Shown: positions 20,746 through 51,638 of the stretch, piece after piece | Position numbering within the stretch: the first letter of the stretch is position 1 | How the letters are laid out: each line of letters starts with the position of its first letter | Source: an uncultured Acidobacteriota bacterium | GTDB lineage: Bacteria; Acidobacteriota; Vicinamibacteria; Vicinamibacterales; 2-12-FULL-66-21 | Assembly (NCBI GenBank): GCA_963740275.1 | Contig: CAVUDT010000002.1 | Span: forward strand, 227,418 to 291,417 | Direction of reading: 5' to 3' | Length of the DNA stretch: 64,000 nucleotides | Notes under the pieces: model-generated | The model's database searches: none | What the model was told of the DNA's origin: nothing | Seen by the model: the letters and a program-made list of their open reading frames with translations, nothing else | Made by a program: the position numbers and the translations under genes

Positions 20746-22061
20746 GGCTCCGTCCGCGGCGGCGGCCCGGGAGCGGTCTCGTCCGCCGGTGCGGGAGAGG
20801 GGAGGCTGAACAGCCGATTGAGCACATCCGAGTAGGTCGCCGCGAGCGAATTGTCGCTCAGCGCCTTGAGCTGTTCGGTCGGCGTGAGCAGCAGTTTCTC
20901 GACGATCAGCCTGGTGATGTGGTCGACCTGCGCCTGCGCGTCGGGGGGCAGCGCACTGAGCTTGGGCTGAAGCCGCTGCAGTTCCGCGCGCCGGATCGAC
21001 TCGAACCGCTCGCGCAGCGCGACCACCGTCAGGATGATCTCCCTCGACTGGAGCCAGGCGGCGAACTTGGCGGTTTCGACGTCGATGATCGCGTCGGCCT
21101 GGTCCAGCTCGGCGCTGCGGCGGGCGAGGTTCTCGCGGACGATCCCCTGAAGGTCGTCGATGTTGTAGAGAAAGACCTGCTCGATGCGCCCGGCCTCCGG
21201 CTCGACGTCGCGGGGCACCGCGATGTCGATGATGAACAGCGCCCGCTCGCGACGCGACTTCATCGCCGCGTCGATGTCGGCCCGCGAAAGGATGGCCGCC
21301 GGTGCGCCGGTCGCGGTCACCAGGATGTCGGCGCGGCCGATGGCGCCCTCGATCTCGCTCCAGTCCACCACCTCCGCCGACAGTTCGGCGCTGAGCCGCT
21401 CGGCGGCGGCGCGGGTGCGGCTGGCGATCGCGATCTGCCGGACATGCTGCGCCCGCAGGTGGACGGCGGTCAGCTTGGCCATCTCCCCGGCCCCGAGGAT
21501 CAAGACGCTGAGACCCTGCAGGTCGCCGAAGATCTTGCGGGCCAGGGCAATCGCCGCGTAGCTGACCGACACTGCCCCTTCGCCCAGGCCGGTTTCCGAG
21601 CGGACGCGCTTGGCGGCGGCGAACGCGAGGTGGAACAGCCGGTTCAACACCGTCCCGGTGCACCGCGCCTCGCTGGCGATGGTGTAGGCGGATTTCACCT
21701 GGCCGAGGATCTGCGGCTCGCCGACGACCAGCGAGTCGAGGCCGGCGGCGACCCGGAACAGGTGGCGGGCGACGTCGGCGCCGTGGTGCACGTACAGGTG
21801 CGGCGAGAGCTGATCGAGCGGCACGTCGTGGTACTCGGCGAAGAACGCGAACAGCTCGTCGATCGCGCGATCGGTGGGCGCCGCCACGTAGACTTCGGCG
21901 CGATTGCAGGTCGAGAGCACCGCCATCTCGCGGGCGATGTTGCGGGCGGCCAGCCCCTCGAGCGCCGCGGCGACCCCGGCGCGCGCGAAATCCACCTGCT
22001 CGCGCAGCTCGATCGGCGCGGTCCGGTGGCTCAACCCGACCGCGTAGAGACGCATCGTCAA
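20742..22061 (-). CDS. hemA: glutamyl-tRNA reductase
   Basis: [21 protein letters not shown]...[10 protein letters not shown]...[10 protein letters not shown]...; intact 439 aa. Confidence 0.9.
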
Positions 22062-27642: not shown

Positions 27643-27644
27643 AA

Positions 27645-27668
27645 GGTTCCAGGTTCCAGGTTCTGGGT
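27645..27668. repeat. heptamer tandem repeat, family 1 (GGTTCCA GGTTCCA GGTTCTG), 20 nt upstream of the desaturase start
   Basis: ggttccaggttccaggttctggg. Same family at 30588, 31183 (reverse) and 50292 (reverse). Confidence 0.55.
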
Positions 27669-28693: not shown

Positions 28694-28835
28694 CAGCTTC
28701 CAGCTTCCAGCTGTCAGCTTCAATCTCAACTCCCAACTCCCAACTCCCAATCTCCAATTCGCGATCCCCAATCCGCAGTCCCCAATCCGCAGTCCCCAAT
28801 CCCCATCCCCCATTCCCGACAGCAATCCCCCACCC
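28694..28835. repeat. composite heptamer-periodic repeat, family 2: (CAGCTTC)n then (ACTCCCA / ATCCCCA / ATCCGCA)n, ~20 units, starting right after the desaturase stop
   Basis: cagcttccagcttccagctgtcagcttcaatctcaactcccaactcccaactcccaatctccaattcgcgatccccaatccgcagtccccaatccgcagtccccaatccccatccccc. Confidence 0.65.
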
Positions 28836-28858: not shown

Positions 28859-30587
28859 GTGCTCGCGAAAATTCTCGATTCCGGCCAGGACGAGCTGCTC
28901 AAGGAGGAGCGACGGGTCCTCACGCGTCTTCAGCTCGCGCTCGTGAAGTTCGACGCGGCGGCCGAGCACCGGGCGGCGCTCGAGCAATCCATCCACCAGC
29001 TGGATGAGCTCTTTCTGCTCGTGATCGTCGGTGAGTTCAACGCGGGCAAGAGCGCGTTCATCAACGCGCTGGTCGGGAGCCCGGTAGCGCAGGAAGGGGT
29101 GACGCCGACGACCGCCCAGATCAACGTGCTGCAGTACGGCGATCAGCCCGGACGGCAGGTCCGCGAAGACAACCTGCACATCATCACCGCCCCAGCCCCG
29201 ATCCTTCGCGACATCCACATCGTCGATACCCCGGGCACGAATGCGATCATCCGCGAGCACGAGGCGATCACCTCGGAGTTCGTGCCCCGGTCGGATCTCG
29301 TGCTGTTCGTGACCTCCGCCGACCGTCCGTTCACCGAGACCGAGCGGGCCTTTCTCGAGCAGATCCGCGGCTGGGGGAAGAAGGTCGTCATCGTCATCAA
29401 CAAGATCGACATCCTGGGCGGGGCCGGGGAGGTGGCCGAGGTCCGCACCTTCGTCGCCGACAACGCCCGCGCGCTGCTCGGATTCAGTCCGGAGGTCTTT
29501 CCGGTCAGCGCCCGGCTGGCGCTGCGGGCGAAGCAGGGGGACCCGGCATCCTGGGCGGCCAGCGGCTTCGAGGATCTCGAGCGATATATCGCGGCTACGC
29601 TCGACGCTCCGGGGCGGGTCCACCTCAAGCTGCTCAACCCGCTCGGTGTCGGCGCCGCGATCAGCGAGCGGCATGGCACGATCGTCCGCGAGCGCCTCGG
29701 CCTCCTGAAAGAGGACTTCACGACGCTCGAAGGGGTCGACCAGCAGCTGTCGGTCTACCAGGAGGACCTGACGCGGGACTTCGAGTTCCGCATGGCCGAT
29801 ATCGACAAGATCCTGCTCGAGATGGAGCGGCGCGGGCAGGACTATTTCGACGAGACCATCCGCATCGGCCGCGTGATGGACCTGCTGAACCGCAGCCGGA
29901 TCCAGCAGGGCTTCGAGCAGCAGGTCGTCGCCGACACGCCGCAGCAGATCGAGCGGAAGGTCGGGGAGCTGGTCGACTGGCTGGTGGCCGCGGATCTCCG
30001 CCAGTGGCAGGCGGTCACCACGCATCTCGCCGAGCGCCGGCGGCAGTATCAGAACCGGATCGTCGGCGAAGACTCCGGTCAGTTTCACTACGACCGCACC
30101 CGCATGATCGACGCCGTCAGCCGCGAGGCGCAGCGGGTGGTCGAGTCGTACGACAAGAAGCGCGAGGCCCAGCATGCTGGCCGACAACGCCCGGAACGCC
30201 GTCGCCGCGGCCGCGGCCGCCGGCGCGACCGCGCTCGGCCTCGGCGCCGTCATCACGTTCGCCGCCTCCACGGTCACCGCCGACTTCACCGGGATCGCGC
30301 TGGCCTCGCTGGTCGCCGCCCTGGGGTTCTTCATCCTGCCGGCCAAGCGCCAGAAGGCGAAGAACGAGATGCGCGAGAAGATCGCGGACGTGCGGAAGCG
30401 GCTGTCGGAGGCGCTGCGGAAGCAGTTTTCGACCGAGATCCAGCGCAGCGGCGACCGCATTCGAGAGAGCATCGCCCCATACAGCCGGTTCATCCGCGCC
30501 GAGGGGAACAAGCTGAAGGAAGTGGATGCGGAGCTGACCGAGATCAGCGCCGCGCTCGCCAGCCTCCGCGCCCGGATCGACTCTTGA
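28859..30587 (+). CDS. bacterial dynamin-like GTPase (BDLP/DynA-type) with a C-terminal membrane paddle; 1-nt frame shift near 30172
   Basis: G1 [17 protein letters not shown]3 DTPG, G4 INKID. C-terminal hydrophobic [33 protein letters not shown] plus coiled coil. Junction ...KKREAQ|[10 protein letters not shown]. Confidence 0.7.
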
Positions 30588-30610
30588 GGTTCCAGGTTCA
30601 GGTTCTAGGG
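30588..30610. repeat. heptamer tandem repeat, family 1, right after the dynamin stop
   Basis: ggttccaggttcaggttctaggg. Confidence 0.5.
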
Positions 30611-30882
30611 CAGTGCCGGGTGGTGACTTTCTACAAGAGGCCAGGAGTTCAAGAGGCCGTTTTTGAAAGAGTTTTCCTGATCTTCTGAGCTCCTGTTGAA
30701 GGATACCGAAGTCGCTGAACCCGGAACCGAGTGGCCTGTCGCGGCTGATTCAGTAGTGGCAGAAACAGAAGCACCGCTGAGCGCGCTGAGGGCGCAGAGA
30801 AGAACCGCCAGAAGAATCCTCTGCGCCGCTCTGCGGCCTTGCGGTGAGGGCTTTGTCGAGGGACTGATTCATCGAGGACGAG
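30605..30882 (-). pseudogene. decayed paralog of the small secreted protein (start codon out of frame after 3 single-nt indels)
   Basis: The signal-peptide frame ...GRRAAQRILLAVLLCALSALSGASVSA... has no start codon. The ATG-containing frame terminates after 40 aa. Confidence 0.35.
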
Positions 30883-31158
30883 CTACTGGCCCGACCGGAA
30901 CCAGGGACGTCCCGGGTGGTGGAGCGACAGAGGCCAGGAGTTCAAGAGGTCGTTTTTGAAAGAGTTTCCTGACTGCGATCTCCTGTTGAGGGCTGCGAAG
31001 TCTGAACCCGGAACCGAGTGGCCTGTCGCGGCTGATTCAGTAGTGGCAGAAACAGAAGCACCGCTGAGCGCGCCGAGGGCGCAGAGAAGAACCGCCAGAA
31101 GAATCCTCTGCGCCGCTCTGCGGCCTGCGGTGAGGTTTTGTCGAGGGTACTGATTCAT
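30883..31158 (-). CDS. small secreted protein, 91 aa, with a signal peptide
   Basis: MNQYPRQNLTAGRRAAQRILLAVLLCALGALSGASVSA|TTESAATGHS... The antisense + strand ORFs 30696-30959/30956-31153 lack such features. Confidence 0.5.
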   Translation of the reverse strand: MNQYPRQNLTAGRRAAQRILLAVLLCALGALSGASVSATTESAATGHSVPGSDFAALNRRSQSGNSFKNDLLNSWPLSLHHPGRPWFRSGQ

Positions 31159-31182
31159 CGAGGACGAGCCACTGGACCCGAA

Positions 31183-31207
31183 GAACCCGGAACCCGGAAC
31201 CTGGAAG
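31183..31207. repeat. heptamer tandem repeat, family 1 (reverse orientation), between flotillin and the small secreted-protein gene
   Basis: gaacccggaacccggaacctggaag. Confidence 0.5.
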
Positions 31208-31210
31208 CGA

Positions 31211-32791
31211 TCAGGATTGGGGCGGAACGGTGGCGGCTGAAACTGCGGGAGGGGCGCCGGTCGCGACGGCGGCCTGGTTGACCCCGAGCTGCTGCAGGAC
31301 GGTCGGCAGGTTGAGCCCGAGCGCCTCCAGCTGCTGGAGCAGGTTGAACACGAGCGCCGGGCTCGTCTGCGCCAGGCGTCCGAGGCTGGTGCTGCCGTTC
31401 TCGCCATTCCCGTGCCCCTGGTCGATCACGACGAGCTTGTCGATGTTGCCCAGGGGGGCAGCGATCGCGCCGAAGACGCCGGTCGAGGCTTCGATGATCG
31501 CCGGCAGCTTCTCGAGGATGGTCTGCAGCCGGGCGGCGTCGTTGAATTCCTTCCACGCCTCGGCCTTGCGCAGGATCGCGGCCGCTTCCGCGACACCCTG
31601 GGCCTCGATCGCCTTGGCCTGGGCGAGACCGATGGCCTCGATCCGCGACGCTTCCGCGCGCCCTTCCGCTTCGACCGCGGCGGCCCGGCCGGTGCCTTCC
31701 TTCTTCAGCTTTTCCTGTTCCGCTTCCGCCATCGCGATCATCGCCGAGCGCCGGCCCTCGGCCTCGAGGATCGCCGACTGCTTCGCCGCCTCGGCGCGAA
31801 CGACCGCGGCCTGGCGATCCGCTTCCGCCGGCTTGATCACCGTGGCATCGAGTTCCTTCTGCCGGCGGAGGACCTCCTGCTCCTGGACCGAGATCATCTC
31901 CTGCGTGCGGGTCTTCTCGACGCGGACTTCCTCGGCGACGACCCCCTGCCGCGCGGTGGCCTCCGAGAGCGGTCCGGCCTGTTCCGCACGGGCTTTCTGG
32001 GTCTCGATCTCCGCCTGGTACTGGGCCTGCCGGATCATGAAGTCCCTGGACGACTGCGCGATCTCGGCCTCGGCCTGGAACTTCGCCTTCTCGCCTTCCT
32101 GCAGCGCCTGCGAGGATTTGATCTTGGCATCGCGGTGCGCCTCGGCCTCGCCGATCGTCGCGTCCCGCTTGACCTCGGCGGTCCGCCGCTTGCCGAGCGC
32201 GTCGAGGTAGCCCTCTTCGTCACTGATTTCCTGGATCGTCAGCACGTCGACGCCGATCCCCATCTTCTCGAGATCCTGCGCCGCTTCAGTGGTGAGCTTC
32301 TGCGCGAAGCTCTGACGGTCGCTGTTGACCTCCTCGACCGTCAGCGTGCCCAGGATCGACCGCAGGTGTCCCTCGAGCGTCTGGAAGATGACTCTCTGGA
32401 CCTGGTCGTGGGTCATGCCGAGAAACCGCTCGGCCGCGGCCTGCAGCGAGGTGTCGTCGCCGCGGATCTTGACGTTGGCCACCGCCTTCACCGAAACCGG
32501 CACACCCTTCAATGTGTACGCCCGCTTGATCTCGAGCGGGATGGTCATCACGTTGAGGTGGAGGTACTCGACCTTTTCGAGCAGCGGGATCCGCAGCGCG
32601 GCGCCGCCGCGAACCATCCGGTAGCCGACGACCCGGCCGTCGGGCAGCTTCCGCTTCCGTCCGCTCAGCACCGCCACGGCGTTCGGCGAAACCTTGATGT
32701 AGTTCCGGCTGAACACATAACCGGCGGCAAAGAAGGACAGGACGATGGCGAGAACGCCGAGGATGACCCCGATCGTGGTGTTGTCCGGCAT
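31211..32791 (-). CDS. flotillin (SPFH/band-7 family, FloT/YqiK-like)
   Basis: N-terminal TM, SPFH domain, long Ala/Glu-rich coiled-coil (AEAEIAQSSRD...EAEGRAEASRIEAIGLAQAKAIEAQ). Confidence 0.9.
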   Translation of the reverse strand: MPDNTTIGVILGVLAIVLSFFAAGYVFSRNYIKVSPNAVAVLSGRKRKLPDGRVVGYRMVRGGAALRIPLLEKVEYLHLNVMTIPLEIKRAYTLKGVPVSVKAVANVKIRGDDTSLQAAAERFLGMTHDQVQRVIFQTLEGHLRSILGTLTVEEVNSDRQSFAQKLTTEAAQDLEKMGIGVDVLTIQEISDEEGYLDALGKRRTAEVKRDATIGEAEAHRDAKIKSSQALQEGEKAKFQAEAEIAQSSRDFMIRQAQYQAEIETQKARAEQAGPLSEATARQGVVAEEVRVEKTRTQEMISVQEQEVLRRQKELDATVIKPAEADRQAAVVRAEAAKQSAILEAEGRRSAMIAMAEAEQEKLKKEGTGRAAAVEAEGRAEASRIEAIGLAQAKAIEAQGVAEAAAILRKAEAWKEFNDAARLQTILEKLPAIIEASTGVFGAIAAPLGNIDKLVVIDQGHGNGENGSTSLGRLAQTSPALVFNLLQQLEALGLNLPTVLQQLGVNQAAVATGAPPAVSAATVPPQS

Positions 32792-32801
32792 GGTTCGACC
32801 C

Positions 32802-33335
32802 CTATTGCTGCTTGACGATCACGGTTTCGCCGAGAACTTCGTCGATCGTGACCGACGCGTTCTCGCCGATCGGCACGCCGTCACGCGTCCGGGCGATTTT
32901 GTCCATCAGCTCCTCGCCGAGCCGGACCCGGATCTGCCCGACGCCACCGGCCGGGATCGCGATGACGACACGGGCGACGGCGCCGACCAGGTCCCCCGAG
33001 CGCACCTCGGTGCTCGCCTGCTGGTTGAACAGGAAGCGGGCGAAGGCGTAGATCGCGCCGCCGAAGATCATGCCGCTGACCAGCCCGGCGATCGCGGCAG
33101 GCACGGGGGAGAGGCCGTAATAGGTCGCGACCGCGCCGGATCCGCCGAAGGTCGTGACGAACACCGCCATGACGCGGCTGCTGAAGAACCCGGGCCCGCC
33201 GGCATCGAAGTCGTGGTCCGCCTCGAAGAAATCGAACAGCCCGCCGAACACCAGCGCGGTCATCAGGAACAGGAAGCCGATCGCGCAAATGGCGAGGAAG
33301 ACCGAAAATGCCGAGAGTGGTGGCAGAAAATCCAT
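32802..33335 (-). CDS. NfeD-like membrane protein (YqiJ-type) upstream of flotillin
   Basis: N-terminal TM helices plus C-terminal OB-fold-like ...GQIRVRLGEELMDKIART...; canonical nfeD-flotillin pairing. Confidence 0.75.
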   Translation of the reverse strand: MDFLPPLSAFSVFLAICAIGFLFLMTALVFGGLFDFFEADHDFDAGGPGFFSSRVMAVFVTTFGGSGAVATYYGLSPVPAAIAGLVSGMIFGGAIYAFARFLFNQQASTEVRSGDLVGAVARVVIAIPAGGVGQIRVRLGEELMDKIARTRDGVPIGENASVTIDEVLGETVIVKQQ

Positions 33336-33466
33336 GGTGTCAGGGAAGCGGGATCGAGCCCACTCTAGGGGCCGGGGAAAGCAAAGTCAAATTCGGCTGC
33401 TAACATTCACGGCGATGGATCATCGGCTTCCACGCACGGCGGTACGGACCGCGTTTTCCCTCCGGC

Positions 33467-34963
33467 GTGGCCTCAGCAGCTTCTAGCCTCACGCGCGAAC
33501 GATGGCTGGCGATTGCCGCGATCACCGCCATCGTGTGCTATCGCTCGGCCGTCTTCGTGTTCTGGCCGCAGGCGCACTTCGACGCCGACTCCGCCATCAC
33601 CGGGCTGATGGCCACGCACATCAGCCAGGGCCGTGCCTTCCCGGTCTTCTGGTACGGGCAGAGCTACATGCTCGCCGTCGAGTCCTATCTCGCGGCGCCG
33701 CTGTTCTTCGTGTTCGGCCCATCGGTGGCGGCGCTCAAGCTGCCGCTCCTCGGGATCAACCTCGCGATCGCGGTGCTGCTGCTGCGCGTGCTGGAACGCG
33801 ACGCCGGCCTGCGGCCGGCCCGGGCGATTCTTCCGGTGCTGTTCTTCGCCCTGCCGGCGCCCGGCACCGCGGCGCGCATCCTCGAAGCCAATGGCGGCAA
33901 CGTCGAACCCTTCCTCTACGTCGTCCTGATCTGGATGACCCGCAACCGCCCGGCATGGTGCGGGCTGGTGCTCGGCTTCGGCTTCCTGCAGCGGGAATTC
34001 ACGCTCTACGGTCTGTTCGCGCTGATCGCAATCGATCTCATGCGACGGCAGCCGTCACTTCGCGACCGAATGCTGGCGCGGACGGCCAGCGTCGGTGTCG
34101 CCGCCGTCGTCTGGATGCTGGCCCAGTGGGTGAAGCGGTTCACCGCCGCCGCCGGGCCGGGCACGACGCTGGCGGACGTCTACAAGGCGCAGTCGAACGT
34201 GTTCGAGCTGGCCAGCCGCATCTGCCTCGATCCGGCGGCGACCTGGGCCGGATTGCCCAAACTGGCGACAGAGCACTGGCCGGTGTTGTTCGGGACGCAG
34301 CGCGTCGCGCTGCTCGACTTCGGCATCGACAGCACGCTGATACAGGGACTCGACGGGAGCTGGGTGCTGCTGGCGGGGTTGTTCGCGGCTGCGGCGGGCT
34401 GGATCGTGCGGCGGCTCCTGATCTCGCGCGCGTGGCTCACCGACTACGACGTCTGCGCCTACTTCGTGCTCGTGGCGCTGTTCTCGCTGGTTGGATACCT
34501 GGGTGGCCGCTGCGGGGAAGTGGGCTTCTTCTGGATGCGCTACGACCTGCTCGCGCTCCTCGGCGGCGTCGGGTTGTCAGCCTGGTTTCTGCGCGCGGAT
34601 CCGCCGCGCCTTCTCACCTGGGGCTGGGGCGTGACCTTCGGCCTGTGGCTGGCGATCGCCGGGGTCGTTCATGGCCGGCTGTGGCTGGAGTACCTGGTGG
34701 CGGCGCCCCCCGGCGGCAAGCAGCAGATGATCCGGCAGCTCGAGGCGGACGGCATACGCTACGTCCTGTCGGATTACTGGATCGCGTACCCGATCACGTT
34801 CCTCACGAACGAGCGGATCGTCGCCGCCTCGACCGATCTCGTCCGGATACCGGAATACACGCGAATCGTCGGCGAACACCGGGCGGAGGCGGTACGCATC
34901 TCCCGCAATCCATGCCCCGGCGGTCGCGAGGTGATTCGCCGCGTCTGGTTCTGCTCGCAGTAA
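33467..34963 (+). CDS. polytopic membrane protein (~13 TM), possibly a GT-C-type glycosyltransferase
   Basis: 498 aa, almost entirely hydrophobic helices with one acidic periplasmic loop (HFDADSAITG). Family assignment is tentative. Confidence 0.45.
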   Translation: MASAASSLTRERWLAIAAITAIVCYRSAVFVFWPQAHFDADSAITGLMATHISQGRAFPVFWYGQSYMLAVESYLAAPLFFVFGPSVAALKLPLLGINLAIAVLLLRVLERDAGLRPARAILPVLFFALPAPGTAARILEANGGNVEPFLYVVLIWMTRNRPAWCGLVLGFGFLQREFTLYGLFALIAIDLMRRQPSLRDRMLARTASVGVAAVVWMLAQWVKRFTAAAGPGTTLADVYKAQSNVFELASRICLDPAATWAGLPKLATEHWPVLFGTQRVALLDFGIDSTLIQGLDGSWVLLAGLFAAAAGWIVRRLLISRAWLTDYDVCAYFVLVALFSLVGYLGGRCGEVGFFWMRYDLLALLGGVGLSAWFLRADPPRLLTWGWGVTFGLWLAIAGVVHGRLWLEYLVAAPPGGKQQMIRQLEADGIRYVLSDYWIAYPITFLTNERIVAASTDLVRIPEYTRIVGEHRAEAVRISRNPCPGGREVIRRVWFCSQ

Positions 34964-34968
34964 GCCGT

Positions 34969-35235
34969 TCAGGCGAATCGCGCTTGCGAGCGTTCCTGCG
35001 CCTTGCGGGCCTCTTCCTCGCGGTTTCTCGGTGGTGCCGAGGTCTTCAGCGAACGAATGAGCTGACGCGCGACCCGGGTGACCTCGTCGACCGCGGTATT
35101 GAAGGCCTCTTCGTTGAGCTTGGACGGACGGCTTGATCCGCTCAGCTTGCGGACGAACTGCAGCGCCGAGGCGCGGATCTCATCGTCAGTGGCCGGGGGA
35201 GCGAAGTTTGCGAGCGTTTTGATGTTGCGGCACAT
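34969..35235 (-). CDS. DUF2277-family small protein
   Basis: MCRNIKTLANFAPPATDDEIRASALQFVRKLSG... matches the DUF2277 N-terminal signature. Confidence 0.65.
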   Translation of the reverse strand: MCRNIKTLANFAPPATDDEIRASALQFVRKLSGSSRPSKLNEEAFNTAVDEVTRVARQLIRSLKTSAPPRNREEEARKAQERSQARFA

Positions 35236-35265
35236 GGAGAATTCCTGGGTCTATTGTCGCAGATT

Positions 35266-35330
35266 CCCATGCCCCATCCCCCATTCCCCATCCCCGATTC
35301 CCCGACTCCCCATCCCCCCGACCCCGATTG
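35266..35330. repeat. heptamer tandem repeat, family 2 (CCCCATC/CCCCATT/CCCGATT...), in the divergent promoter region
   Basis: cccatgccccatcccccattccccatccccgattccccgactccccatccccccgaccccgattg. Confidence 0.6.
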
Positions 35331-35334
35331 ATAT

Positions 35335-35358
35335 AGAGTCTGTCTTTATATAGACTCT
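35335..35358. promoter_or_regulatory. inverted repeat AGAGTCT-N10-AGACTCT, 7 nt upstream of the PadR start; candidate PadR autoregulatory operator
   Basis: agagtctgtctttatatagactct; AT-rich spacer in an otherwise GC-rich region. Confidence 0.4.
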
Positions 35359-35364
35359 CTGCCC

Positions 35365-35698
35365 ATGGAACCGCTCCACGGACTGCTGGACATGCTGGTG
35401 CTGCAAACGCTGATCCTCGGGCCGTTGCACGGGTACGGCATTGCCAAGTCCATCCACGACAGGTCCGATGAAGCCCTGGCGATCGAGTTCGGTTCACTCT
35501 ATCCGGCGCTGAAGCGCCTCGAGCTCAAGGGCTGGATCGCGTCGAAGTGGGACCTGTCCGAGCACAACCGGCGGGCCAAGTACCTATCGGCTCACGCCGG
35601 CAGGCAGAAAAAAGCTTCGGCAAGAGCAGTCAGACTGGCAGCATTTCGCCTCGGCCATCACCCGGGTCATGAAGATCGTACCGGAGGGCCAGTCATGA
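35365..35698 (+). CDS. PadR-family transcriptional regulator; 1-nt frame shift near 35588
   Basis: LDMLVLQTLILGPLHGYGIAKSI...GSLYPALKRLELKGWI...NRRAKY|YRLTPAGRKKLRQEQSDWQHF... The stop overlaps the permease start (ATGA). Confidence 0.7.
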
Positions 35699-38439
35699 CC
35701 ATCTGGAAAAAGCTCCTGCTCCTGTTGCCCTCCCGCCGTCGCGCCGCAGAGCGCGACATGCAAGAAGAACTTGAATCACTCCGGGACATGGCCGAGCCTC
35801 ACGAGCTCGGTAACCTGACGCTCGTCGCCGAGGACGGGCGCGCGACGTGGAGCTGGAGGTGGCTCGAACACCTGGGGCAGGACCTGCGCTACGCACGGCG
35901 TTCCATGCTCCACGACAAGACCTTCACCGCGCTGGCCGCGCTCTCGCTCGCGCTGGGGATCGGTGCCAACACCGCGATCTACAGCTTCACCGAGTCGATT
36001 CTGCTGCGGTCCTTGCCGGTATCGGAGCCGGAAGCCCTTGTGATCATGACGTGGCGGGCCCGGTCGTCGTACACGTCCGCCGCGTCCAGCGGAATGTCGT
36101 TCTCCACCGGGGGCAGCTACAGCGATCCGACGGAAGGCTACATCGGCAGCCAGTTTTCCTATCCCGCCCTCGAGATCTTCCAGCGCAACACCGATGTGCT
36201 GTCGAGTGCGTTCTGCTACTTCGTCGCAGATCGTCTGCATCTCACGATCGACGACGCAACCGAAGTCGTTCGCGGGCAATACGTGTCGGGCAGCTACTTC
36301 AGCGGAATGGGAGTGCCGCCTGCCGCCGGGCGTCTCATCCTGGCGGGCGACGACGAGGAGGGCGCCGCGAGTGTCGCCATTCTCAGCCATCGCTTCAGCC
36401 AGCTCCGATTCGGAGACGCCCGGCAGGCCGTCGGCCGGACCGTGCGAATCAATGACAAGCCGTTCTCGGTGGTTGGCGTGACCCCGCCGGGTTTTTTTGG
36501 CGCAGAGCCGGGGTCGGTGCCCGACGTCTTCGTTCCGATGCATGCCCAGGCGGTTATCGAGTCCGCCGGGGTGATGACCAGCACACTGAACCGCAATCAC
36601 CTCAATCCGAACTACTACTGGATCGAGATCATGGGTCGGCTCGCGCCAGGCGTGAGCCTCGCGCAGGCACAGGCCGTGCTCGCGCCCCAGTTTCGAAGAT
36701 TCGTCGACGCGACTGCGACAACGGAACGGCAGCGCACGAATCTCCCGGATCTGAGGATCACAGACGGCTCGGCGGGTCTCGATAGCATCCGGCGGCGTTA
36801 TGCGAAGCCGGTATTCGTGTTGATGACGATGGCCGGGCTCATTCTGCTCATTGCCTGCGCCAACCTCGCCAACCTTCTGCTCGCGCGCGCCATGTCACGG
36901 CGGCGCGAGATCGCCGTTCGGCTCAGCATCGGCGCCAGCCGGATGCGCATCGTCCGGCAGATGCTGACCGAGAGCGTACTGCTGTCCTCGATTGGTGGTC
37001 TGCTCGGTGTCCTCTGCGCATGGTGGGGCATCCGCGTGCTTACAGCCCTGCTCGCCAGCGGTCGCGAGAACTTCACGCTGCATGCCGAGTTGAACTGGCA
37101 TGTGCTGGCCGCGACTTTCGCACTGTCGGTGTTGACCGGCTTGTTGTTCGGGTCGGTGCCCGCCCTTCAAGCCACCCGCGTTGATGTGATGCCCGCCTTG
37201 AAGCAGAGCAGGACGGCCACCGTGGCGGCGCCCCCCAGGCCTCGTCGTATCGGGTTGAGCCAAACGCTCGTCGTCGCGCAGATCGCCTTCTCGCTCGTGT
37301 TGCTCGTCGCCGCGGGGCTGTTCGGAGGCACGCTATCGAGGCTGCATGCCATCGAGACCGGGTTCAATCGGGAGGACGTCCTGCTGTTTACAGTCAGAGC
37401 CACGTCGGCCGGTTATGAGGGACCGGCGTTGACCCGTGTCTATGAAGACTTGCGAGGACGATTGCAACCGGTACCGGGGGTTGTCAGTGTCAGCCTCTCC
37501 AGTCGGGCGCTGCCGGCGGGAGGAGGCACGATGTCGCGGGTGACGGTGGTCGGCGCGCCACCGGCGCCTCCACCTGTTGCCGGCGAGCGTCCGCCAGACT
37601 ACGCCGGCTTGTTGAGCGTCGGGCCGGCGTTCTTCGAGACCATGCAGATCCCGCTGACGGCCGGGCGCGAGTTCGATGAGCGCGACGTCGCGGGCGCGAC
37701 TCGCGTGGCGATCGTCAATCAGAAGCTCGCCACGGTGCTGGGCCTCAGAAACCCGGTTGGCACGAGAATCATCACCGGTGGCGGCCGCGCCGCGATCGAG
37801 TATGAGATCGTCGGGGTAGTCGGAGACGCGCTCTTTCTGAAACTCAAAGACGAGCAAAGGCCGATGGTCTACTTTTCGTACGTGCAGGATTCGCCGCCAT
37901 GGTCCATGACCTACGAGGTGCGTTCTGCCGGCCATCCGCTGGCGCTTGCCAACACCGTCCGCCAGATCGTCCGCCAGATCGATCCGCGCCTCGCGGTGTC
38001 AGATGTGAAGACGCAGGCGGTACACATCGACCAGGGGATCAGTCAGGAGATCGCGCTCGCACGGCTGTGCACGGTGTTCGCGGGGCTGGCGCTCGTCATC
38101 GCGTGTGTCGGCCTGTATGGAACGGTCGCGTTCAATGTCAGCCGACGCGTCGTCGAGATCGGGGTTCGCATGGCGCTCGGCGCTCAGCGCGCCGGGATCG
38201 TGTGGCTGATCCTTCGCTCGGTGCTGATCCTCGAGCTGCTCGGACTCGCGATCGGCGTGCCGATCGTTCTGCTCGGATCGCGCTACGTTGAGTCGCTGTT
38301 GTTCGGCATCAAGCCGAACGACCCGTTGGTCGTCTCGGCCGGCGTGGCCGCCCTGCTCAGCGCGGGCCTGGTGGCCAGCTACGTGCCGGCGCGACGCGCC
38401 TCGAGCGTCGATCCGATGGTCGCTTTGCGTAACGAGTAG
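35695..38439 (+). CDS. ADOP-family duplicated FtsX/MacB-type permease (915 aa), intact
   Basis: N-terminus MTIWKKLLLLLPSRRRAAERDMQEELESL...LGQDLRYARRSMLHDKTFT... Two FtsX-like 4-TM bundles (…LIACANLANLLLARA… and …IACVGLYGTVAFNVSRR…). Confidence 0.85.
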   Translation: MTIWKKLLLLLPSRRRAAERDMQEELESLRDMAEPHELGNLTLVAEDGRATWSWRWLEHLGQDLRYARRSMLHDKTFTALAALSLALGIGANTAIYSFTESILLRSLPVSEPEALVIMTWRARSSYTSAASSGMSFSTGGSYSDPTEGYIGSQFSYPALEIFQRNTDVLSSAFCYFVADRLHLTIDDATEVVRGQYVSGSYFSGMGVPPAAGRLILAGDDEEGAASVAILSHRFSQLRFGDARQAVGRTVRINDKPFSVVGVTPPGFFGAEPGSVPDVFVPMHAQAVIESAGVMTSTLNRNHLNPNYYWIEIMGRLAPGVSLAQAQAVLAPQFRRFVDATATTERQRTNLPDLRITDGSAGLDSIRRRYAKPVFVLMTMAGLILLIACANLANLLLARAMSRRREIAVRLSIGASRMRIVRQMLTESVLLSSIGGLLGVLCAWWGIRVLTALLASGRENFTLHAELNWHVLAATFALSVLTGLLFGSVPALQATRVDVMPALKQSRTATVAAPPRPRRIGLSQTLVVAQIAFSLVLLVAAGLFGGTLSRLHAIETGFNREDVLLFTVRATSAGYEGPALTRVYEDLRGRLQPVPGVVSVSLSSRALPAGGGTMSRVTVVGAPPAPPPVAGERPPDYAGLLSVGPAFFETMQIPLTAGREFDERDVAGATRVAIVNQKLATVLGLRNPVGTRIITGGGRAAIEYEIVGVVGDALFLKLKDEQRPMVYFSYVQDSPPWSMTYEVRSAGHPLALANTVRQIVRQIDPRLAVSDVKTQAVHIDQGISQEIALARLCTVFAGLALVIACVGLYGTVAFNVSRRVVEIGVRMALGAQRAGIVWLILRSVLILELLGLAIGVPIVLLGSRYVESLLFGIKPNDPLVVSAGVAALLSAGLVASYVPARRASSVDPMVALRNE

Positions 38440-38449
38440 GGCAGCCGCG

Positions 38450-39916
38450 TCAGGCCGGGCGCCGCGCGAACATCAGGTAGACACCGCCGGCGACCGCGAA
38501 CCCGATGAACCACGCGTAGTCGAACAGCGGCCGCAACGGTTCGTAGACGAGCCCGATCCACGCCACCGCGCAGCCGGCAAGCGTGGCGAGGATCCCGGCC
38601 GGGTTCCACGCCCCATACCGCCCCTCGCTGAGATAGAGATCCTCGAGCGCCAGCTGACGCCGACGGACGATCCAGTAGTCGGCGATCAGCACCCCGGCGA
38701 TGGATCCAAGGCCGCCGGAATAGCCGACCAGCCAGCTGAAGATGTAGCCGGACGGATCCGCCAGCAGCTTCCACGGCATGATGACGATGCCGAGGATGCC
38801 GGTGATGAGTCCACCGGTCTTGAAGTTGATGGCCTTGGGAAACGCATTGGCGAAATCGTTCGCGGGTGAGACGACGTTGGCGGCAATGTTGACCGCCAGC
38901 GTGGCGACCACGGCGGTGAACATCGAGATGGCGATGACCAGCGGTGAGCTGAAACGGCCGACCAGCTTGATTGGATCCCAGATCACCTCGCCATAGATGA
39001 TCGTCGTCGCGCTGGTGATGAGCACGCCCATCGCCGCGAAGAGAAACATCGTCGTCGGCAGCGCGACCGTCTGGCCGATGACCTGCTCGCGCTGGCTGCG
39101 GCCGAAGCGGGTGAAGTCGGGCATGTTCAGCGACAGCGTCGCCCAGTAGCCGACCATCGCCGTCAGCGACGGGATGAAGATCGGCATGAATTCGCCGAGC
39201 GTCTGGAACTTGCCGGGTTGTGAAAGGAGAGGGCCGAGGCCGTCGGCCTCGGACACCGCCCAGGCGAGCAATACGCCGGTCATGATCAGGACGAACGGCG
39301 CGGCCCAGTTCTCCACCGCCCGCAGCAGGTCCATGCCCTTGTAGATGATCCCGATGTTCAGGCCCCAGAACAGCAGGAAGGAGATCCATTCGGTGGTCGT
39401 GTGGCCGTCGAAGCCGGCGCCGAGCAGCGTCGGCCAGCCCGGGATCACGCTGGTGAAGAACGTCTGCAGCGCCTCGCCGCCGATCCAGCCCTGGATGCCG
39501 AACCAGCCGCAGGCCACCAGCGCGCGCATCAGCGCCGGGAGGTTCGAGCCGAGGGTGCCGTACGCAGCTCGCGCGTAGACGGGGAATGGGATGCCGTACT
39601 TCGTGCCGGGGTGAGAGTTGAGCAGGATCGGGATGAGCACGATCGTGTTGCCCAGTCCCACCGTGAACAGGGCCTGTCCCCAGCTCATGCCGGCGGCCAT
39701 CAGTCCGGCCGACAGCATGTAGGTGGGGATGCAGTGCGCCATGCTGATCCAGAGCGCGGCGTAGTTATAGGTCGTCCAGGTGCGGCGCACGATCGGCACC
39801 GGCGCGAGATCCTCGTTGTAGAGCGCGCTCTGTTCGACCCGGGACGTGTCGGTCAACTCGACGCGCCCGTCAGGGTGCTCGACCTGGCTCCTTGCCACTG
39901 GGATCATCGCGCGCAT
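38450..39916 (-). CDS. NCS1-family nucleobase/hydantoin:cation symporter
   Basis: 12 TM. Motifs WISMAHCIPTY, FGxQGWIGG-like (CGWFGIQGWIGGEAL). The longer ORF to 40120 is an overextension. Confidence 0.85.
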   Translation of the reverse strand: MRAMIPVARSQVEHPDGRVELTDTSRVEQSALYNEDLAPVPIVRRTWTTYNYAALWISMAHCIPTYMLSAGLMAAGMSWGQALFTVGLGNTIVLIPILLNSHPGTKYGIPFPVYARAAYGTLGSNLPALMRALVACGWFGIQGWIGGEALQTFFTSVIPGWPTLLGAGFDGHTTTEWISFLLFWGLNIGIIYKGMDLLRAVENWAAPFVLIMTGVLLAWAVSEADGLGPLLSQPGKFQTLGEFMPIFIPSLTAMVGYWATLSLNMPDFTRFGRSQREQVIGQTVALPTTMFLFAAMGVLITSATTIIYGEVIWDPIKLVGRFSSPLVIAISMFTAVVATLAVNIAANVVSPANDFANAFPKAINFKTGGLITGILGIVIMPWKLLADPSGYIFSWLVGYSGGLGSIAGVLIADYWIVRRRQLALEDLYLSEGRYGAWNPAGILATLAGCAVAWIGLVYEPLRPLFDYAWFIGFAVAGGVYLMFARRPA

Positions 39917-39935
39917 TGTATAGGCAGCGCGCGGA

Positions 39936-40576
39936 TCAAGAGCGCTGAACGACTCCGGCGCCACCCCGTGAAGGGATCCGGTACGCCTTTTTGATCTCGA
40001 TCGCTGGAGCGAGGCTCTGGCCCTGGACGGGCTGCCGCTGAATGACGCGCACGACATCCAGGCCGGCGACCACCCGGCCGAACGCCGCCGTGCCCTGGCC
40101 ATCGTCGAATCGCTTGCCACCGTGGTTCAGCGAGGGCTGATCGTTCAGGTGAATCGACGAACCCGGACCGCGCCGAGTCGGCCTGGTCGCCGCGCGGCAT
40201 CGAGACCGTGCCGACGACGTGGGTGAGTCCGGTGACGCTGGTGCGCTCGAGCGGGATTGCCGGAAATCGCTCGGCGCCGCGCGCCGGGTTGATGTCTGCC
40301 TGGATGATCTCCAGGAGAGGACGGTTGGGCAGGTTGGGCGTGTAGTTGTCGGCCCGGGTCGCGCGATGAACGCGGCCGCCGTCGTAGAACCCTCCGTCGA
40401 CGTACTTGAGGAAGTTGCCGGCGGTGATCGGCGCCCGAGCCGATGTCGATGGCGAGATCGACGTTGCCGAACGCGGTTTCGATCCGGACGAGGACCTCGC
40501 CTCGCGCCGGATCGGATTGCTGGGCCGCCGGGGCCGCCAGCAGGACGGCGGCGAGGAGCATGACTCGTGTCCGCAT
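39936..40576 (-). pseudogene. secreted cyclophilin-type peptidyl-prolyl isomerase, frame shifted twice (~40425 and ~40185)
   Basis: Signal MRTRVMLLAAVLLAAPAAQQ. PITAGNFLKYVDGGFYDGGRVHR. ...GTVSM... then ...HLNDQPSLNHGGKRFDDGQGTAAFGRVVAGLDVV in a third frame. Confidence 0.6.
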
Positions 40577-40777
40577 CGGTTCCTCCCTCCGGCAACCTGA
40601 CCAGCCTCCGCCAAGGCTTCGGCGGTCCGCCGTAGCTTTAGCGAAGGCGGAACGGCTGCGCTACAGGCCTTCAGTTGTGTAGATCGTAGCCTGCGCGCGC
40701 GCTTCACGAAACCTCTAACGCTGCCGCGTCGCGCCACCGGTTGACGTTCGACCCGAGCGGATGCATACTCCGGTCGT

Positions 40778-41131
40778 ATGTCTACCCGAAGAGGCGAACG
40801 TGACCCCGTGACTCTCTTGCAGGGCACGCTGGACCTGCTGATCCTTCGAACCCTGATCTTTGGTCGCCAGCACGGGCAGGGGATTGCGCGCGCGATCGAA
40901 CAGCAGGCGGAAGACACACTGCTCGTGGATCACGGCTCGCTCTATCCGGCGCTGCAACGGCTCGAAACCCGCGGATGGATCTCGGCCGAGTGGGGTGCCT
41001 CCGACAACAACCGCAAGGCGCGCTTCTACACGCTGACCCGGACCGGGCGCAAGCAGCTCGTCGCCGAGACCCGGCAGTGGCGGCGCCTGGCCGCCGCGAT
41101 CGGCCGGATCATCGGGCCGGAGGAGGCATAG
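40778..41131 (+). CDS. PadR-family transcriptional regulator (intact)
   Basis: [23 protein letters not shown]...[42 protein letters not shown]. Confidence 0.85.
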
Positions 41132-41135
41132 CGCG

Positions 41136-43830: not shown

Positions 43831-44090
43831 GATCGGTGCCCCGCGTGGCCATCGGCGATGTCATGCTGCCGCGTTGACTGAGCGCAAGTGCTTTTCCTAC
43901 ACCTGCCGTCACCGCTATGGCCTCAGGTTTTGCACCCACGGCGATGTCAGTCTCGTCCTTCATGAGTCAGACGGTTGCACTGCGGCTGGTCTCAGATTCT
44001 GCGAAGCCGGCGAGCGCATGTTCACATCGTCGCGCATTGTATAATCCGATTCCCCCCTCGACCCCGGCAGCTCCCGTTTCTGGAGGCGTC

Positions 44091-46949: not shown

Positions 46950-47097
46950 TTGCGGATTGGGGATTGCGGATTGTTGACTGACGGATTGTAGATTGGGGAT
47001 TGTGGATTGATGGTCGAAGCGCTTGCAATCAACACTCGACAATCCCAATCCGCGATCCCTAATCCGTCGATCAGCAATCCGCGATCCCCAATCCGCA
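46949..47097. repeat. ~150-bp imperfect palindrome built from family-2 heptamers (GATTGCG/GATTGGG arm, centre AAGCGCTT, then CCCAATC/CCGCAATC arm) between convergent genes
   Basis: gattgcggattggggattgcggattg...gattggggattgtggattg | tcgaagcgcttgcaatc | caatcccaatccgcgatccctaatccg...caatccgcgatccccaatccgc. Confidence 0.7.
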
Positions 47098-50291: not shown

Positions 50292-50354
50292 CCTGAACGA
50301 AACTCAGAACTCAGAACTCAGCATCCAGAACCTGGAACCCAGAACCTAGAACCT
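50292..50354. repeat. heptamer tandem repeat, family 1 (reverse orientation, ~8 units), in the divergent promoter region
   Basis: aactcagaactcagaactcagcatccagaacctggaacccagaacctagaacctga. Confidence 0.6.
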
Positions 50355-50421
50355 GATGAGCCCCCCTGTCAAGGCAGCGAGTGCTAAGATGCCGGCTTCA
50401 ACCCCGCAAGGAGATCATCAA

Positions 50422-51567: not shown

Positions 51568-51627
51568 GGGAAATGGCAGATGGTAGAAAGCGGCTAACAG
51601 TCGCCCGTCTACCATCTACCATTTCCC
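51568..51627. terminator. 20-bp-stem hairpin between convergent genes (candidate bidirectional terminator, no clear U-tract)
   Basis: gggaaatggcagatggtaga-N20-tctaccatctaccatttccc (one mismatch). Confidence 0.35.
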
Positions 51628-51638
51628 ATCACCATTAC

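What the first reader, a model, noticed from the sequence alone, without database searches (positions are those of the whole stretch)
30605..31207. 293-bp tandem duplication carrying a small secreted-protein gene; one copy intact (91 aa), one freshly decayed, directly downstream of flotillin
Two units are more than 90% identical. The upstream minus-strand copy (31158-30883) encodes MNQYPRQNLTAGRRAAQRILLAVLLCALGALSGASVSA|TTESAATGHSVPGSDFAALNRRSQSGNSFKNDLLNSWPLSLHHPGRPWFRSGQ. That is a clean signal peptide plus a ~60-aa Ser/Gly-rich mature part. The downstream copy differs by three 1-nt indels within the first 45 nt, so its ATG is out of frame with the signal peptide. The pair lies between flotillin and the convergent dynamin-like gene and is flanked on both sides by family-1 heptamer repeats. 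Tandem gene duplication with one decaying copy, bounded by short repeats, suggests repeat-mediated unequal recombination. The secreted peptide could be a flotillin/NfeD-associated factor.
Basis: seen in the sequence. Interest (0 to 1): 0.55.

Follow-up and report, generated by a model that had tools for sequence, protein, structure and literature searches.

The report
Duplicated terminator-like spacer, doubtful small gene
The 290-bp tandem duplication between the flotillin and dynamin-like genes is real, but it is most likely a duplicated non-coding spacer built around a terminator-like hairpin, and the "secreted-protein gene" on it is probably a chance reading frame.

Summary
Observation confirmed. 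Two head-to-tail units (about 30607-30894 and 30903-31181) fill the 622-bp spacer between the convergent dynamin-like (+) and flotillin (-) genes. They are flanked by inverted heptamer arrays. Identity is 90% overall but uneven: 96% in a 180-nt core and 80% in the rest.

The 91-aa minus-strand ORF exists and has a signal-peptide-like N-terminus.

The gene reading is weak:
- No homologue turned up in the protein, metagenome-contig or viral-contig searches, or in 80 related loci.
- Codon usage is non-coding-like (GC3 0.65 against 0.89 for real genes).
- There is no Shine-Dalgarno sequence or promoter match.
- Six syntenic relatives have no such ORF.

The conserved core is a long GC-rich imperfect palindrome (CACCGC..GCGCAGAG-loop-CTCTGCGC..GCGGTG) with U-rich tails on both strands. 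A related palindrome sits at the same site in relative L008, where no ORF exists. The "signal peptide" is the translation of this hairpin's loop, descending arm and U-tract.

Best reading: a lineage-specific tandem duplication of a bidirectional-terminator-like spacer in a genome full of heptamer arrays. The assembly also carries frameshifts in hemC and two other genes, so calling one copy "decayed" is unsafe. Interest is low.

The parts
28859..30587 (+). Dynamin-family GTPase gene, convergent with flotillin. It has an apparent +1 frameshift (extra T near 30175) relative to relative L002.
   Evidence: Pfam Dynamin_N 2.5e-25. Alignment with L002 shows a 1-nt insertion. tblastn hits fall in two frames.
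30587..30609 (.). Left heptamer array (AGGTTCC x3.4), directly after the dynamin stop codon. It is the inverted partner of 31183-31206.
   Evidence: TRF. Inverted repeat I1, 13 nt at 92%. Motif enrichment 11 vs 1.0 expected. These ends pair in the MFE fold of the spacer.
30607..30714 (.). Unit A, divergent part (79.8% identical to 30903-31001, with 8 indel events). Contains a conserved 39-nt block at 30636-30674.
30717..30728 (.). Internal heptamer dimer GAACCCGGAACC of unit A, in the same orientation as the right flank.
   Evidence: (family D5)
30729..30894 (.). Unit A core: a long imperfect hairpin. Its palindrome CACCGC..GCGCAGAG-loop-CTCTGCGC..GCGGTG lies at 30772-30846.
   Evidence: Fold of 30708-30895: MFE -78.8 kcal/mol, z -2.35 on +. 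Motif scans.
30750..30872 (-). 40-aa ORF opened by the ATG of copy A. It is out of frame with the hydrophobic stretch.
30895..30906 (.). Unit junction: heptamer remnant CCGGAACC joined to AGGG (start of unit B). It overlaps the 10-nt palindrome GGGACGTCCC.
   Evidence: (I2)
30903..31001 (.). Unit B, divergent part.
31004..31015 (.). Internal heptamer dimer GAACCCGGAACC of unit B.
31016..31181 (.). Unit B core: a long imperfect hairpin. Palindrome at 31059-31132, apex loop at 31087-31105. U-rich tails follow on both strands: on - strand CUUCUGUUUCUG (31058-31047), on + strand GGUUUUGUCG (31135-31144).
   Evidence: Fold of 30995-31182: MFE -81.8, z -3.19 on +; -76.9, z -2.69 on -. 111-nt fold. 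Terminator-like hits 4 vs 1.1 expected. Motif scans.
30883..31158 (-). 91-aa ORF ('ORF91') with a signal-peptide-like N-terminus. Probably fortuitous. Residues 12-40 are encoded by the palindrome and its U-tract.
   Evidence: No homologues.
31183..31206 (.). Right heptamer array (GAACCCG x3.4), 4 nt from the flotillin stop codon.
31211..32791 (-). Flotillin gene (SPFH/Band 7 + Flot), 91-93% identical to Vicinamibacterales MAG proteins.
32802..33335 (-). NfeD-like membrane protein gene upstream of flotillin.
   Evidence: Precomputed NfeD_TM hit, marked 'faint' by the tool. The gene precedes flotillin in nearly all of the 80 related loci.

Best explanation
The 622-bp spacer between the convergent flotillin and dynamin-like genes is non-coding DNA that has been duplicated in tandem in this lineage.

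Each ~290-bp unit has three pieces:
- a fast-diverging ~105-nt piece;
- a heptamer dimer;
- a ~170-nt GC-rich imperfect palindrome. Its inner ~75 nt (CACCGC..GCGCAGAG-loop-CTCTGCGC..GCGGTG) is followed by a U-rich tract on either strand.

That is the layout of a bidirectional intrinsic terminator or 3'-end-protecting hairpin for two transcripts that run into each other. The whole spacer sits inside a stem formed by inverted heptamer arrays. Such arrays are the usual filling of gene boundaries in this genome.

The duplication most likely arose by slipped or template-switch recombination at the heptamer sequences. The cores were later kept near-identical, either by gene conversion or by constraint on the hairpin.

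The 91-aa ORF is a by-product. Read on the pyrimidine-rich strand, the ascending arm gives GRRAAQR, the loop plus descending arm gives ILLAVLLCALGAL, and the stem base plus U-tract gives SGASVSA. Together these imitate a signal peptide.

Shown: the anatomy, the hairpins, the lack of homologues, the non-coding codon statistics, and the related palindrome at the syntenic site. Inferred: the terminator function, the recombination mechanism, and that the ORF is not translated.
For: Position and flanks:
- The pair occupies exactly the stop-to-stop spacer of convergent genes.
- Other convergent spacers in the window (46948-47096, 57625-57765) are also hairpins made of inverted heptamer arrays. So is the syntenic spacer of L002.

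Hairpin:
- Each core folds into one long hairpin, z -2.4 to -3.2. The whole spacer gives z -3.8 and -4.3.
- T-run terminator-like hits: 4 against 1.1 +/- 1.1 expected, at the same place in both units.
- The palindrome motif occurs 4 times in the window (both strands of the two units) against 0.04 expected.
- Among 80 related loci the full motif occurs only in L008, exactly in the flotillin/dynamin spacer, and in L016.
- The L008 spacer is the top Smith-Waterman match of 79 post-flotillin regions (score 69-73 against median 36 and 95th percentile about 50; z 5.3-7.4). It folds the same way (z -3.45). L016 folds with z -7. L008 has no ORF there.

Against coding:
- ORF91 has GC3 0.65 and codon log-odds -0.32. 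Real genes give 0.89 +/- 0.06 and 0.51 +/- 0.25. Off-frame sequence gives -0.51 +/- 0.47. All six frames of both units are equally flat.
- No SD and no promoter-like site.
- No homologue in the word-indexed search of 5.8 billion sequences. Only one spurious TPR-repeat hit in the exhaustive search of 1.84 billion representatives.
- No relative in metagenome or viral contig scans, Pfam, NCBIfam or PDB.
- The high-identity block is identical at the nucleotide level, synonymous sites included. The 'mature' part differs partly by frameshifting and compensating indels. That is conservation of DNA, not of protein.
Against: - In a crude test of all 631 Met positions with at least 60 codons to a stop, 16 looked signal-peptide-like. 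The other 15 all lie in evident real coding frames, so ORF91 is the only such hit in a non-coding-like frame.
- The same frame stays open in both units through 8 indel events whose net length is +9 nt. I estimate this happens by chance perhaps 15-20% of the time (my own rough estimate, not computed).
- The hairpin z-scores are moderate. The U-tracts are imperfect. L008 and L016 lack U-tracts.
- Only two or three sequences carry the palindrome, so covariation could not be tested.
- No transcript data are available. The rest of the genome could not be searched.
Confidence: 0.58

Rival explanations
1. One reading: ORF91 is a genuine, young or horizontally acquired orphan gene for a small Sec-exported or membrane-anchored peptide. 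It would probably be co-transcribed with NfeD-flotillin. Copy A is either a pseudogene or an intact paralogue whose 5' indels are assembly errors.
For: - It has a canonical n-h-c pattern with VSA|T, the only such hit outside evident coding frames among 631 tested Met positions.
- The frame is kept open in both units despite many indels.
- It lies 50 nt downstream of flotillin on the same strand.
- Real genes with lowish GC3 (0.72) exist in the window.
- The assembly has indel errors, so copy A could be intact.
Against: - No homologue anywhere, and absent from all six syntenic relatives.
- Non-coding codon statistics and no GC3 periodicity.
- No SD or promoter.
- The N-terminal half matches a non-coding palindrome in L008.
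- Conservation is at DNA level, not protein level.
- One SP-like chance hit among the several hundred non-coding-frame Met positions in a 64-kb window is about what a low false-positive rate would give.
Confidence: 0.2
2. The unit, or its palindromic core, is a non-autonomous mobile or REP/ERIC/MITE-like palindromic element. It inserted at the apex of an L002-like heptamer hairpin and now sits in two adjacent copies.
For: - Relative to L002, the units lie exactly between the two heptamer arms.
- The core is a long imperfect palindrome of a type also seen at unrelated sites (L016).
- The cores are 96-99% identical while their surroundings differ.
- Each core is bracketed by direct GAACCCGGAACC-type heptamers.
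Against: - No other copy in the 64-kb window or in 1.38 Mb of related loci by blastn.
- No hit to a 24-mer of the core in metagenome contigs.
- No terminal inverted repeats or target-site duplications apart from the heptamers.
- No transposase or RAYT was identified among the genes adjacent to the spacer.
- The L008 palindrome at the same site argues for residence rather than insertion.
Confidence: 0.12
3. The spacer encodes small regulatory RNA(s) or antisense RNAs, for example against the 3' ends of flotillin or dynamin. Alternatively, the plus-strand ORFs are the expressed ones.
For: - Structured, lineage-specific intergenic sequence with a conserved core.
- The + strand is the purine-rich strand, like coding strands in this window.
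Against: - No Rfam match even at E <= 10.
- No promoter-like site on either strand.
- The plus-strand frames have no homologues and have non-coding codon statistics.
Confidence: 0.07
4. Assembly artefact: the duplication, or most of the differences between the copies, comes from long-read assembly or polishing errors.
For: - Frameshifts in hemC (at C6 runs), a MacB-like gene and the dynamin-like gene.
- 12 gap events against 14 substitutions between the units is an unusually indel-rich pattern.
Against: - The copies also differ by 14 substitutions and by multi-nucleotide indels concentrated in one third of the unit. Random errors at about 1 per 10-20 kb cannot produce that.
- Artefactual duplications are normally identical.
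Confidence: 0.03

Closest known systems
Bidirectional intrinsic terminators between convergent bacterial genes (A-tract / GC-rich hairpin / U-tract read on both strands; from my own knowledge of the terminator literature)
   Same: It lies between the two stop codons of convergent genes. It is a GC-rich stem-loop with a purine/A-rich 5' flank (CAGAAACAGAAG) and a U-rich 3' flank on each strand.
   Different: The stem is much longer and more bulged (75-170 nt) than classical terminators. The U-tracts are interrupted. It is present twice and is nested inside a heptamer-array stem. Termination was not measured.
REP/BIME and ERIC-type extragenic imperfect palindromes
   Same: An extragenic GC-rich imperfect palindrome, in adjacent copies at the 3' ends of genes, with family-like relatives at other loci (L008, L016).
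   Different: No evidence of high copy number. The copies are direct rather than alternating. No RAYT-type transposase was seen. The unit also carries about 105 nt of non-palindromic sequence.
Heptameric intergenic tandem repeats (cyanobacterial STRR; GGGNATC repeats of Xanthomonas and Nostoc, PMC4692102)
   Same: Period-7 arrays of 3-9 units concentrated at gene boundaries. Some arrays in the window (GATTGGG/CCCCAATC) are of the GGGNATC type.
   Different: The arrays flanking this finding (AGGTTCC/GGAACCY) are a different, non-G4 motif. They occur as inverted pairs that form a stem around the spacer. The organism is an acidobacterium (Vicinamibacterales).
Orphan or de novo small ORFs arising from non-coding DNA
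   Same: A lineage-restricted ORF with non-native codon usage, whose start region aligns to non-coding sequence in a relative (ATG against ATT of L008's ...GATTAG).
   Different: No evidence of expression or of selection on the protein.

Membership tests
Genuine protein-coding gene for a Sec-secreted small protein | Open reading frame with a canonical start and an n-h-c signal peptide with an AXA site | tested here: met
   ATG at 31158. R-rich n-region, ILLAVLLCALGAL h-region, VSA|T c-region. It passes a crude SP filter that otherwise hit only real coding frames. No SignalP was available.
Genuine protein-coding gene for a Sec-secreted small protein | Codon usage and third-position GC periodicity like the host's genes | tested here: not met
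   GC3 0.65 against 0.89 +/- 0.06. Codon log-odds -0.32 against 0.51 +/- 0.25. Only 2.7% of real-gene windows score as low, and all six frames are alike.
Genuine protein-coding gene for a Sec-secreted small protein | Homologues, or conservation at the syntenic site in relatives | tested here: not met
   No hits (the one hit is spurious). Absent from 80 related loci and from six syntenic spacers.
Genuine protein-coding gene for a Sec-secreted small protein | Translation initiation signal (Shine-Dalgarno) and a promoter or operon context | tested here: inconclusive
   No SD in ggctcgtcctcgATG, whereas several real secreted-protein genes in the window have one. No sigma-70-like site. Co-transcription with flotillin remains possible.
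Genuine protein-coding gene for a Sec-secreted small protein | Evidence of translation or export | not testable with these tools
   Needs Ribo-seq, proteomics or reporter fusions.
Intrinsic (bidirectional) transcription terminator | Stable GC-rich stem-loop just downstream of the stop codon(s) | tested here: met
   The palindrome at 31059-31132 (and 30772-30846) lies inside a 170-nt hairpin. MFE -82/-77 kcal/mol, z -3.2/-2.7 for unit B. It lies in the stop-to-stop spacer of convergent genes.
Intrinsic (bidirectional) transcription terminator | U-rich tract directly 3' of the stem on the transcribed strand(s) | tested here: inconclusive
   The - strand has CUUCUGUUUCUG, flagged by the scan (4 hits against 1.1 expected). 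The + strand has GGUUUUGUCG in unit B and GGGCUUUGUCG in unit A. The tracts are interrupted, and the related hairpins in L008 and L016 have none.
Intrinsic (bidirectional) transcription terminator | Transcript 3' ends map to the hairpin | not testable with these tools
   Needs Term-seq or 3'-RACE.
MITE / REP-like mobile palindromic element | Multiple dispersed copies in the genome | tested here: inconclusive
   No other copy in the 64-kb window, the related loci or the metagenome scan. The rest of the source genome was not available. The palindrome motif recurs in L008 and L016.
MITE / REP-like mobile palindromic element | Terminal inverted repeats with target-site duplication | tested here: not met
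   The repeat finder shows only the heptamer arms and a 10-nt palindrome at the junction.
Tandem segmental duplication by unequal recombination between direct repeats | Two head-to-tail copies with a junction inside a repeat that is present in direct orientation at both ends | tested here: inconclusive
   The head-to-tail copies are confirmed. The junction CCGGAACC|AGGG is heptamer sequence. However, the left array (AGGTTCC) is the inverted complement of the right one (GGAACCY), so only 2-3 nt of microhomology or 4/6 homeology is available.
Known RNA families (Rfam 15) | Covariance-model match | tested here: not met
   Nothing relevant even at E <= 10 in 30000-31800.

The most novel reading that the evidence does not exclude
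A terminator hairpin caught turning into a gene. In this lineage the palindromic 3'-end hairpin of flotillin acquired an ATG (ATT in relative L008). Because its pyrimidine-rich strand translates into an R-rich / hydrophobic / AXA sequence, it now encodes a bona fide exported 91-aa peptide that is co-transcribed with NfeD-flotillin. Tandem duplication then produced a second copy that is either decaying or diverging in its C-terminal part. A related variant: a one-base change in the G4 run at 31219-31222 would fuse this frame to flotillin and give it a membrane-spanning C-terminal extension.
Probability: 0.1. Interest if true: 0.6.

Novelty: new member of a known kind. Interest (0 to 1): 0.2.

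Why it matters
If the main reading is right, this is ordinary genome texture: a duplicated hairpin-bearing spacer in a repeat-rich acidobacterial genome. It matters mainly as a caution. GC-rich terminator palindromes read on their pyrimidine-rich strand can imitate signal peptides convincingly. Single-base indels in long-read MAGs should not be read as pseudogenisation. The more general point of some interest is the dense use of species-specific heptamer arrays and long hairpins at gene boundaries in Vicinamibacterales. I did not find a description of this for the group in the one literature search made. Only if ORF91 proved to be translated would the locus become a neat example of de novo gene birth from a terminator.

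Tried and rejected
- Tandem Repeats Finder did not report the 290-bp period. The repeat was established with the repeat finder, blastn and global alignment instead.
- Exact look-ups of the flotillin protein and of the 137-aa dynamin C-terminal ORF found no contig.
- The NfeD protein is identical on three other contigs (Logan ERR11592907, ENA ERZ27251491, JGI 3300018469). All are too short (1.1-2.5 kb) to reach the spacer.
- A search with the flotillin C-terminus found nothing above 92% identity, so no same-species second assembly of the spacer could be obtained.
- A 24-mer of the core gave no hit in metagenome contigs.
- Back-translated peptide scans of metagenome and viral contigs gave no confirmed relatives.
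- The single phmmer hit (E 9e-5) is a TIR-CHAT-TPR protein matched through summed weak repeats, so it is rejected.
- Apparent co-linear similarity of the whole unit to the L004 spacer (z 4.3) was rejected. Its score (55) is not an outlier among 79 control regions, where L014, L021 and L024 score 55-58 with gappy noise alignments.
- Covariation analysis of the palindrome across the window, L008 and L016 was uninformative. There were too few sequences and MAFFT misaligned loops of different length.
- RiPP precursor and type I toxin readings were considered because of the identical N-terminal and variable C-terminal pattern and the tandem copies. I dropped them: the adjacent genes (flotillin, NfeD-like, dynamin-like) are not modification enzymes, no antitoxin signal was seen, and the ORF is long for a type I toxin. 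No dedicated search was run.
- Structure prediction was not attempted. An orphan 52-aa polar tail without an alignment would not give an interpretable model.
Full report
**Context.** The window is high-GC DNA (67%) from an acidobacterium of the Vicinamibacterales. Its flotillin protein (31211-32791, minus strand; Pfam Band_7 and Flot) is 91-93% identical to proteins encoded in Vicinamibacterales and Acidobacteriota MAGs. The finding fills the spacer 30588-31210 between two convergent genes. One is a dynamin-family GTPase on the plus strand, with its stop at 30585-30587. The other is flotillin on the minus strand, with its stop at 31211-31213. Flotillin is preceded by an NfeD-like gene.

- blastn of the spacer against the whole window finds a single strong self-match: 88.4% over 309 columns, E 5e-101. 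There is no other copy in 64 kb.
- The repeat finder shows co-linear blocks with offsets of 286-296 nt, including 125 nt at 99%.
- A global alignment of 30607-30894 with 30903-31181 gives 262 matches, 14 substitutions and 12 gap events, or 90.0% identity.
- The identity is very uneven. It is 79.8% in the dynamin-proximal 108 nt of each unit and 96.2% in the remaining 180 nt (Fisher p = 1.5e-4).
- Copy A has three 1-nt indels within 33 nt after its ATG, so that ATG opens a 40-aa frame without the hydrophobic stretch.
- Heptamer arrays flank the pair. The two arrays are inverted with respect to each other and pair with each other in the minimum-energy fold of the whole spacer.
- A heptamer dimer GAACCCGGAACC also lies inside each unit, and a remnant lies at the unit junction.

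**Is the ORF a gene? Evidence against.**
- No homologue was found in a word-indexed search of 5.8 billion proteins.
- An exhaustive phmmer search of 1.84 billion representatives gave one hit. It is a TPR-repeat protein matched through summed weak repeats and is rejected.
- Pfam, NCBIfam and PDB gave nothing. Scans of metagenome and viral contigs gave nothing.
- The plus-strand frame is equally orphan.
- Codon statistics are those of non-coding sequence. GC3 is 0.65 against 0.89 +/- 0.06 in 91-codon windows of real genes. The codon log-odds is -0.32 against 0.51 +/- 0.25 for real genes and -0.51 +/- 0.47 for off-frame sequence. All six frames of both units look alike.
- There is no Shine-Dalgarno sequence, whereas several genuine secreted-protein genes in the window have one. 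There is no promoter-like site.

**Evidence for the ORF.**
- I tested every Met with at least 60 codons to a stop, in all six frames, with a crude signal-peptide filter. Sixteen of 631 passed. The other fifteen all lie in evident coding frames. The resemblance is therefore not trivial.
- Even so, one chance hit among the several hundred non-coding-frame Met positions in a 64-kb window is about what a low false-positive rate would give.
- The frame also stays open in both copies through eight indel events that sum to +9 nt. I rate this as weak support.

**What relatives show.** Six related loci (L002, L004, L008, L011, L013, L047) keep the NfeD-flotillin / dynamin arrangement.
- Their spacers are 20-400 bp long, mutually unrelated, and contain no equivalent ORF.
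- L002 and L011 have only inverted arrays of short tandem repeats that form a hairpin. L002's repeats are of the same GGTTCC type as the arrays in this window.
- blastn finds no copy of the unit in any of the 80 loci.
- The inner part of each unit core is a palindrome: CACCGC..GCGCAGAG-loop-CTCTGCGC..GCGGTG. The apex pattern occurs four times in the window (both strands of the two units) against 0.04 expected.
- In 1.38 Mb of related loci the full pattern occurs only twice. One is in the flotillin/dynamin spacer of L008. The other is in L016.
- The L008 spacer is the best Smith-Waterman match to the unit among 79 post-flotillin regions. It scores 69-73 against a median of 36 and a 95th percentile of about 50, with z 5.3-7.4 against shuffles.
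- All three sequences fold into the same hairpin, with conserved ends and apex and a different but still paired middle.
- In L008 the sequence aligned to the ORF's ATG is the ATT of flotillin's own ...GAT TAG end. No ORF is present there.
- A similarity to the L004 spacer did not stand out from controls, so I discard it.

**Anatomy and likely function.** Each unit core folds into one long imperfect hairpin. For unit B the MFE is -81.8 kcal/mol (z -3.2) on the plus strand and -76.9 (z -2.7) on the minus strand. Unit A is somewhat weaker.
- The 75-nt palindrome is followed by CUUCUGUUUCUG on the minus strand. The terminator scan flagged this at the same place in both units, 4 hits against 1.1 expected.
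- On the plus strand it is followed by GGUUUUGUCG in unit B.
- This A-rich / hairpin / U-rich layout, readable in both directions between convergent genes, is that of a bidirectional intrinsic terminator or 3'-end-protecting hairpin. That comparison rests on my own knowledge of such terminators.
- Mapping ORF91 onto the hairpin explains the signal-peptide look. Residues 12-18 (GRRAAQR) come from the ascending arm. Residues 19-31 (ILLAVLLCALGAL) come from the loop and the descending arm. Residues 32-38 (SGASVSA) come from the stem base and the U-tract.
- The near-identity of the cores includes synonymous positions. In the divergent part, shared DNA is read in different frames in the two copies. 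What is conserved is DNA, not protein.

**Origin of the duplication.** The junction reads CCGGAACC|AGGG. It joins heptamer sequence from the right-hand array to the first bases after the left-hand array.
- Because the two arrays are inverted, classical unequal crossing-over between direct repeats does not fit.
- Slippage or template switching on microhomology is more plausible. A stem formed by the inverted arrays, which brings the two ends together, may have helped. This step is inferred.
- The 20% divergence of the dynamin-proximal part shows that the duplication is not fresh. Gene conversion, or constraint on the hairpin, must have kept the cores alike.

**Assembly quality.** At least three genes are frameshifted.
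- hemC is split between two frames: Pfam Porphobil_deam positions 1-104 and 116-206. The site has C6 runs.
- A MacB-like permease is split near 41615.
- The dynamin-like gene has an extra T near 30175 relative to L002.
- A frameshifted hemC points to indel errors in the assembly rather than to real pseudogenes.
- Twelve gap events against fourteen substitutions between the units is also indel-rich.
- The substitutions and multi-base indels show that the copies truly differ. Whether copy A is really "decayed" still cannot be decided without reads.

**Verdict.**
- The duplication is real.
- The gene interpretation is weakly supported, at about 0.2.
- The best explanation, at about 0.58, is a lineage-specific tandem duplication of a non-coding, terminator-like spacer embedded in heptamer arrays.
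- This is a new instance of known kinds of things and is of low interest.
- There is a small chance, about 0.1, that it is a de novo secreted-peptide gene born from a terminator hairpin.

Noticed in passing
window 27644-27663, 28694-28817, 35266-35325, 46948-47096, 50301-50355, 51608-51635, 52209-52288, 57625-57765, 59720-59739: Period-7 tandem arrays of several different motifs sit at many gene boundaries. In convergent spacers (46948-47096, 57625-57765) they come as inverted pairs that would form long hairpins. The GATTGGG/CCCCAATC type resembles the GGGNATC repeats described in Xanthomonas and Nostoc (PMC4692102).
   Followed up: partly
L002 11584-11760; L011 2745-2990: The same flotillin/dynamin spacer in relatives is filled with species-specific inverted short-repeat arrays: GGGGTTCCAA-type in L002 and GACGTGC-type in L011. 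The spacer is hypervariable between genomes whose flotillins are 84-93% identical to the window's.
   Followed up: partly
window 19851-20778 (-): Porphobilinogen deaminase (hemC) is split between two reading frames (Pfam positions 1-104 and 116-206). The switch region carries CGCACCCCCCGCAC repeats with C6 runs. This is likely an assembly indel error.
   Followed up: partly
window 41314-41884 (+): The MacB-like periplasmic core domain is split between two frames near 41615-41625. Neighbouring short high-GC3 segments at 40976-41291 are in still other frames. The gene is either broken or error-ridden.
   Followed up: partly
window ~30175 (+): The dynamin-like gene has one extra base (CAGCA-T-GCTGG) relative to L002. 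This splits it into a 28859.. frame and a 30174-30587 frame.
   Followed up: yes
window 31211-31225 and 31219-31222: The flotillin tail is ...PPQS* here but ...PPKLD* in relatives. The difference involves a 1-nt shift in a C/G4 run. Removing one base of that run would fuse flotillin in frame, through the heptamer array, to ORF91.
   Followed up: partly
L016 18050-18150: A very stable 100-nt palindrome (MFE -71 kcal/mol, z -7) has the same CACCGC..GCAGAG / CTCTGC..GCGGTG ends as the window's core, at an unrelated locus. It may belong to a family of Vicinamibacterales extragenic palindromes.
   Followed up: partly
window 32802-33335 (-): The NfeD-like protein is 100% identical on contigs from three other samples (Logan ERR11592907, ENA ERZ27251491, JGI 3300018469), and the tool's block summary shows a fourth block whose longest contig is 0.2-1 Mb. 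The organism therefore recurs in public soil data, but the three contigs returned are too short to reach the spacer.
   Followed up: yes
window 33400-44000 vs L002: Synteny with L002 is continuous on the dynamin side. On the NfeD side it resumes only at about 38.4-50 kb of the window. This suggests an insertion or rearrangement next to the NfeD-flotillin pair.
   Followed up: no
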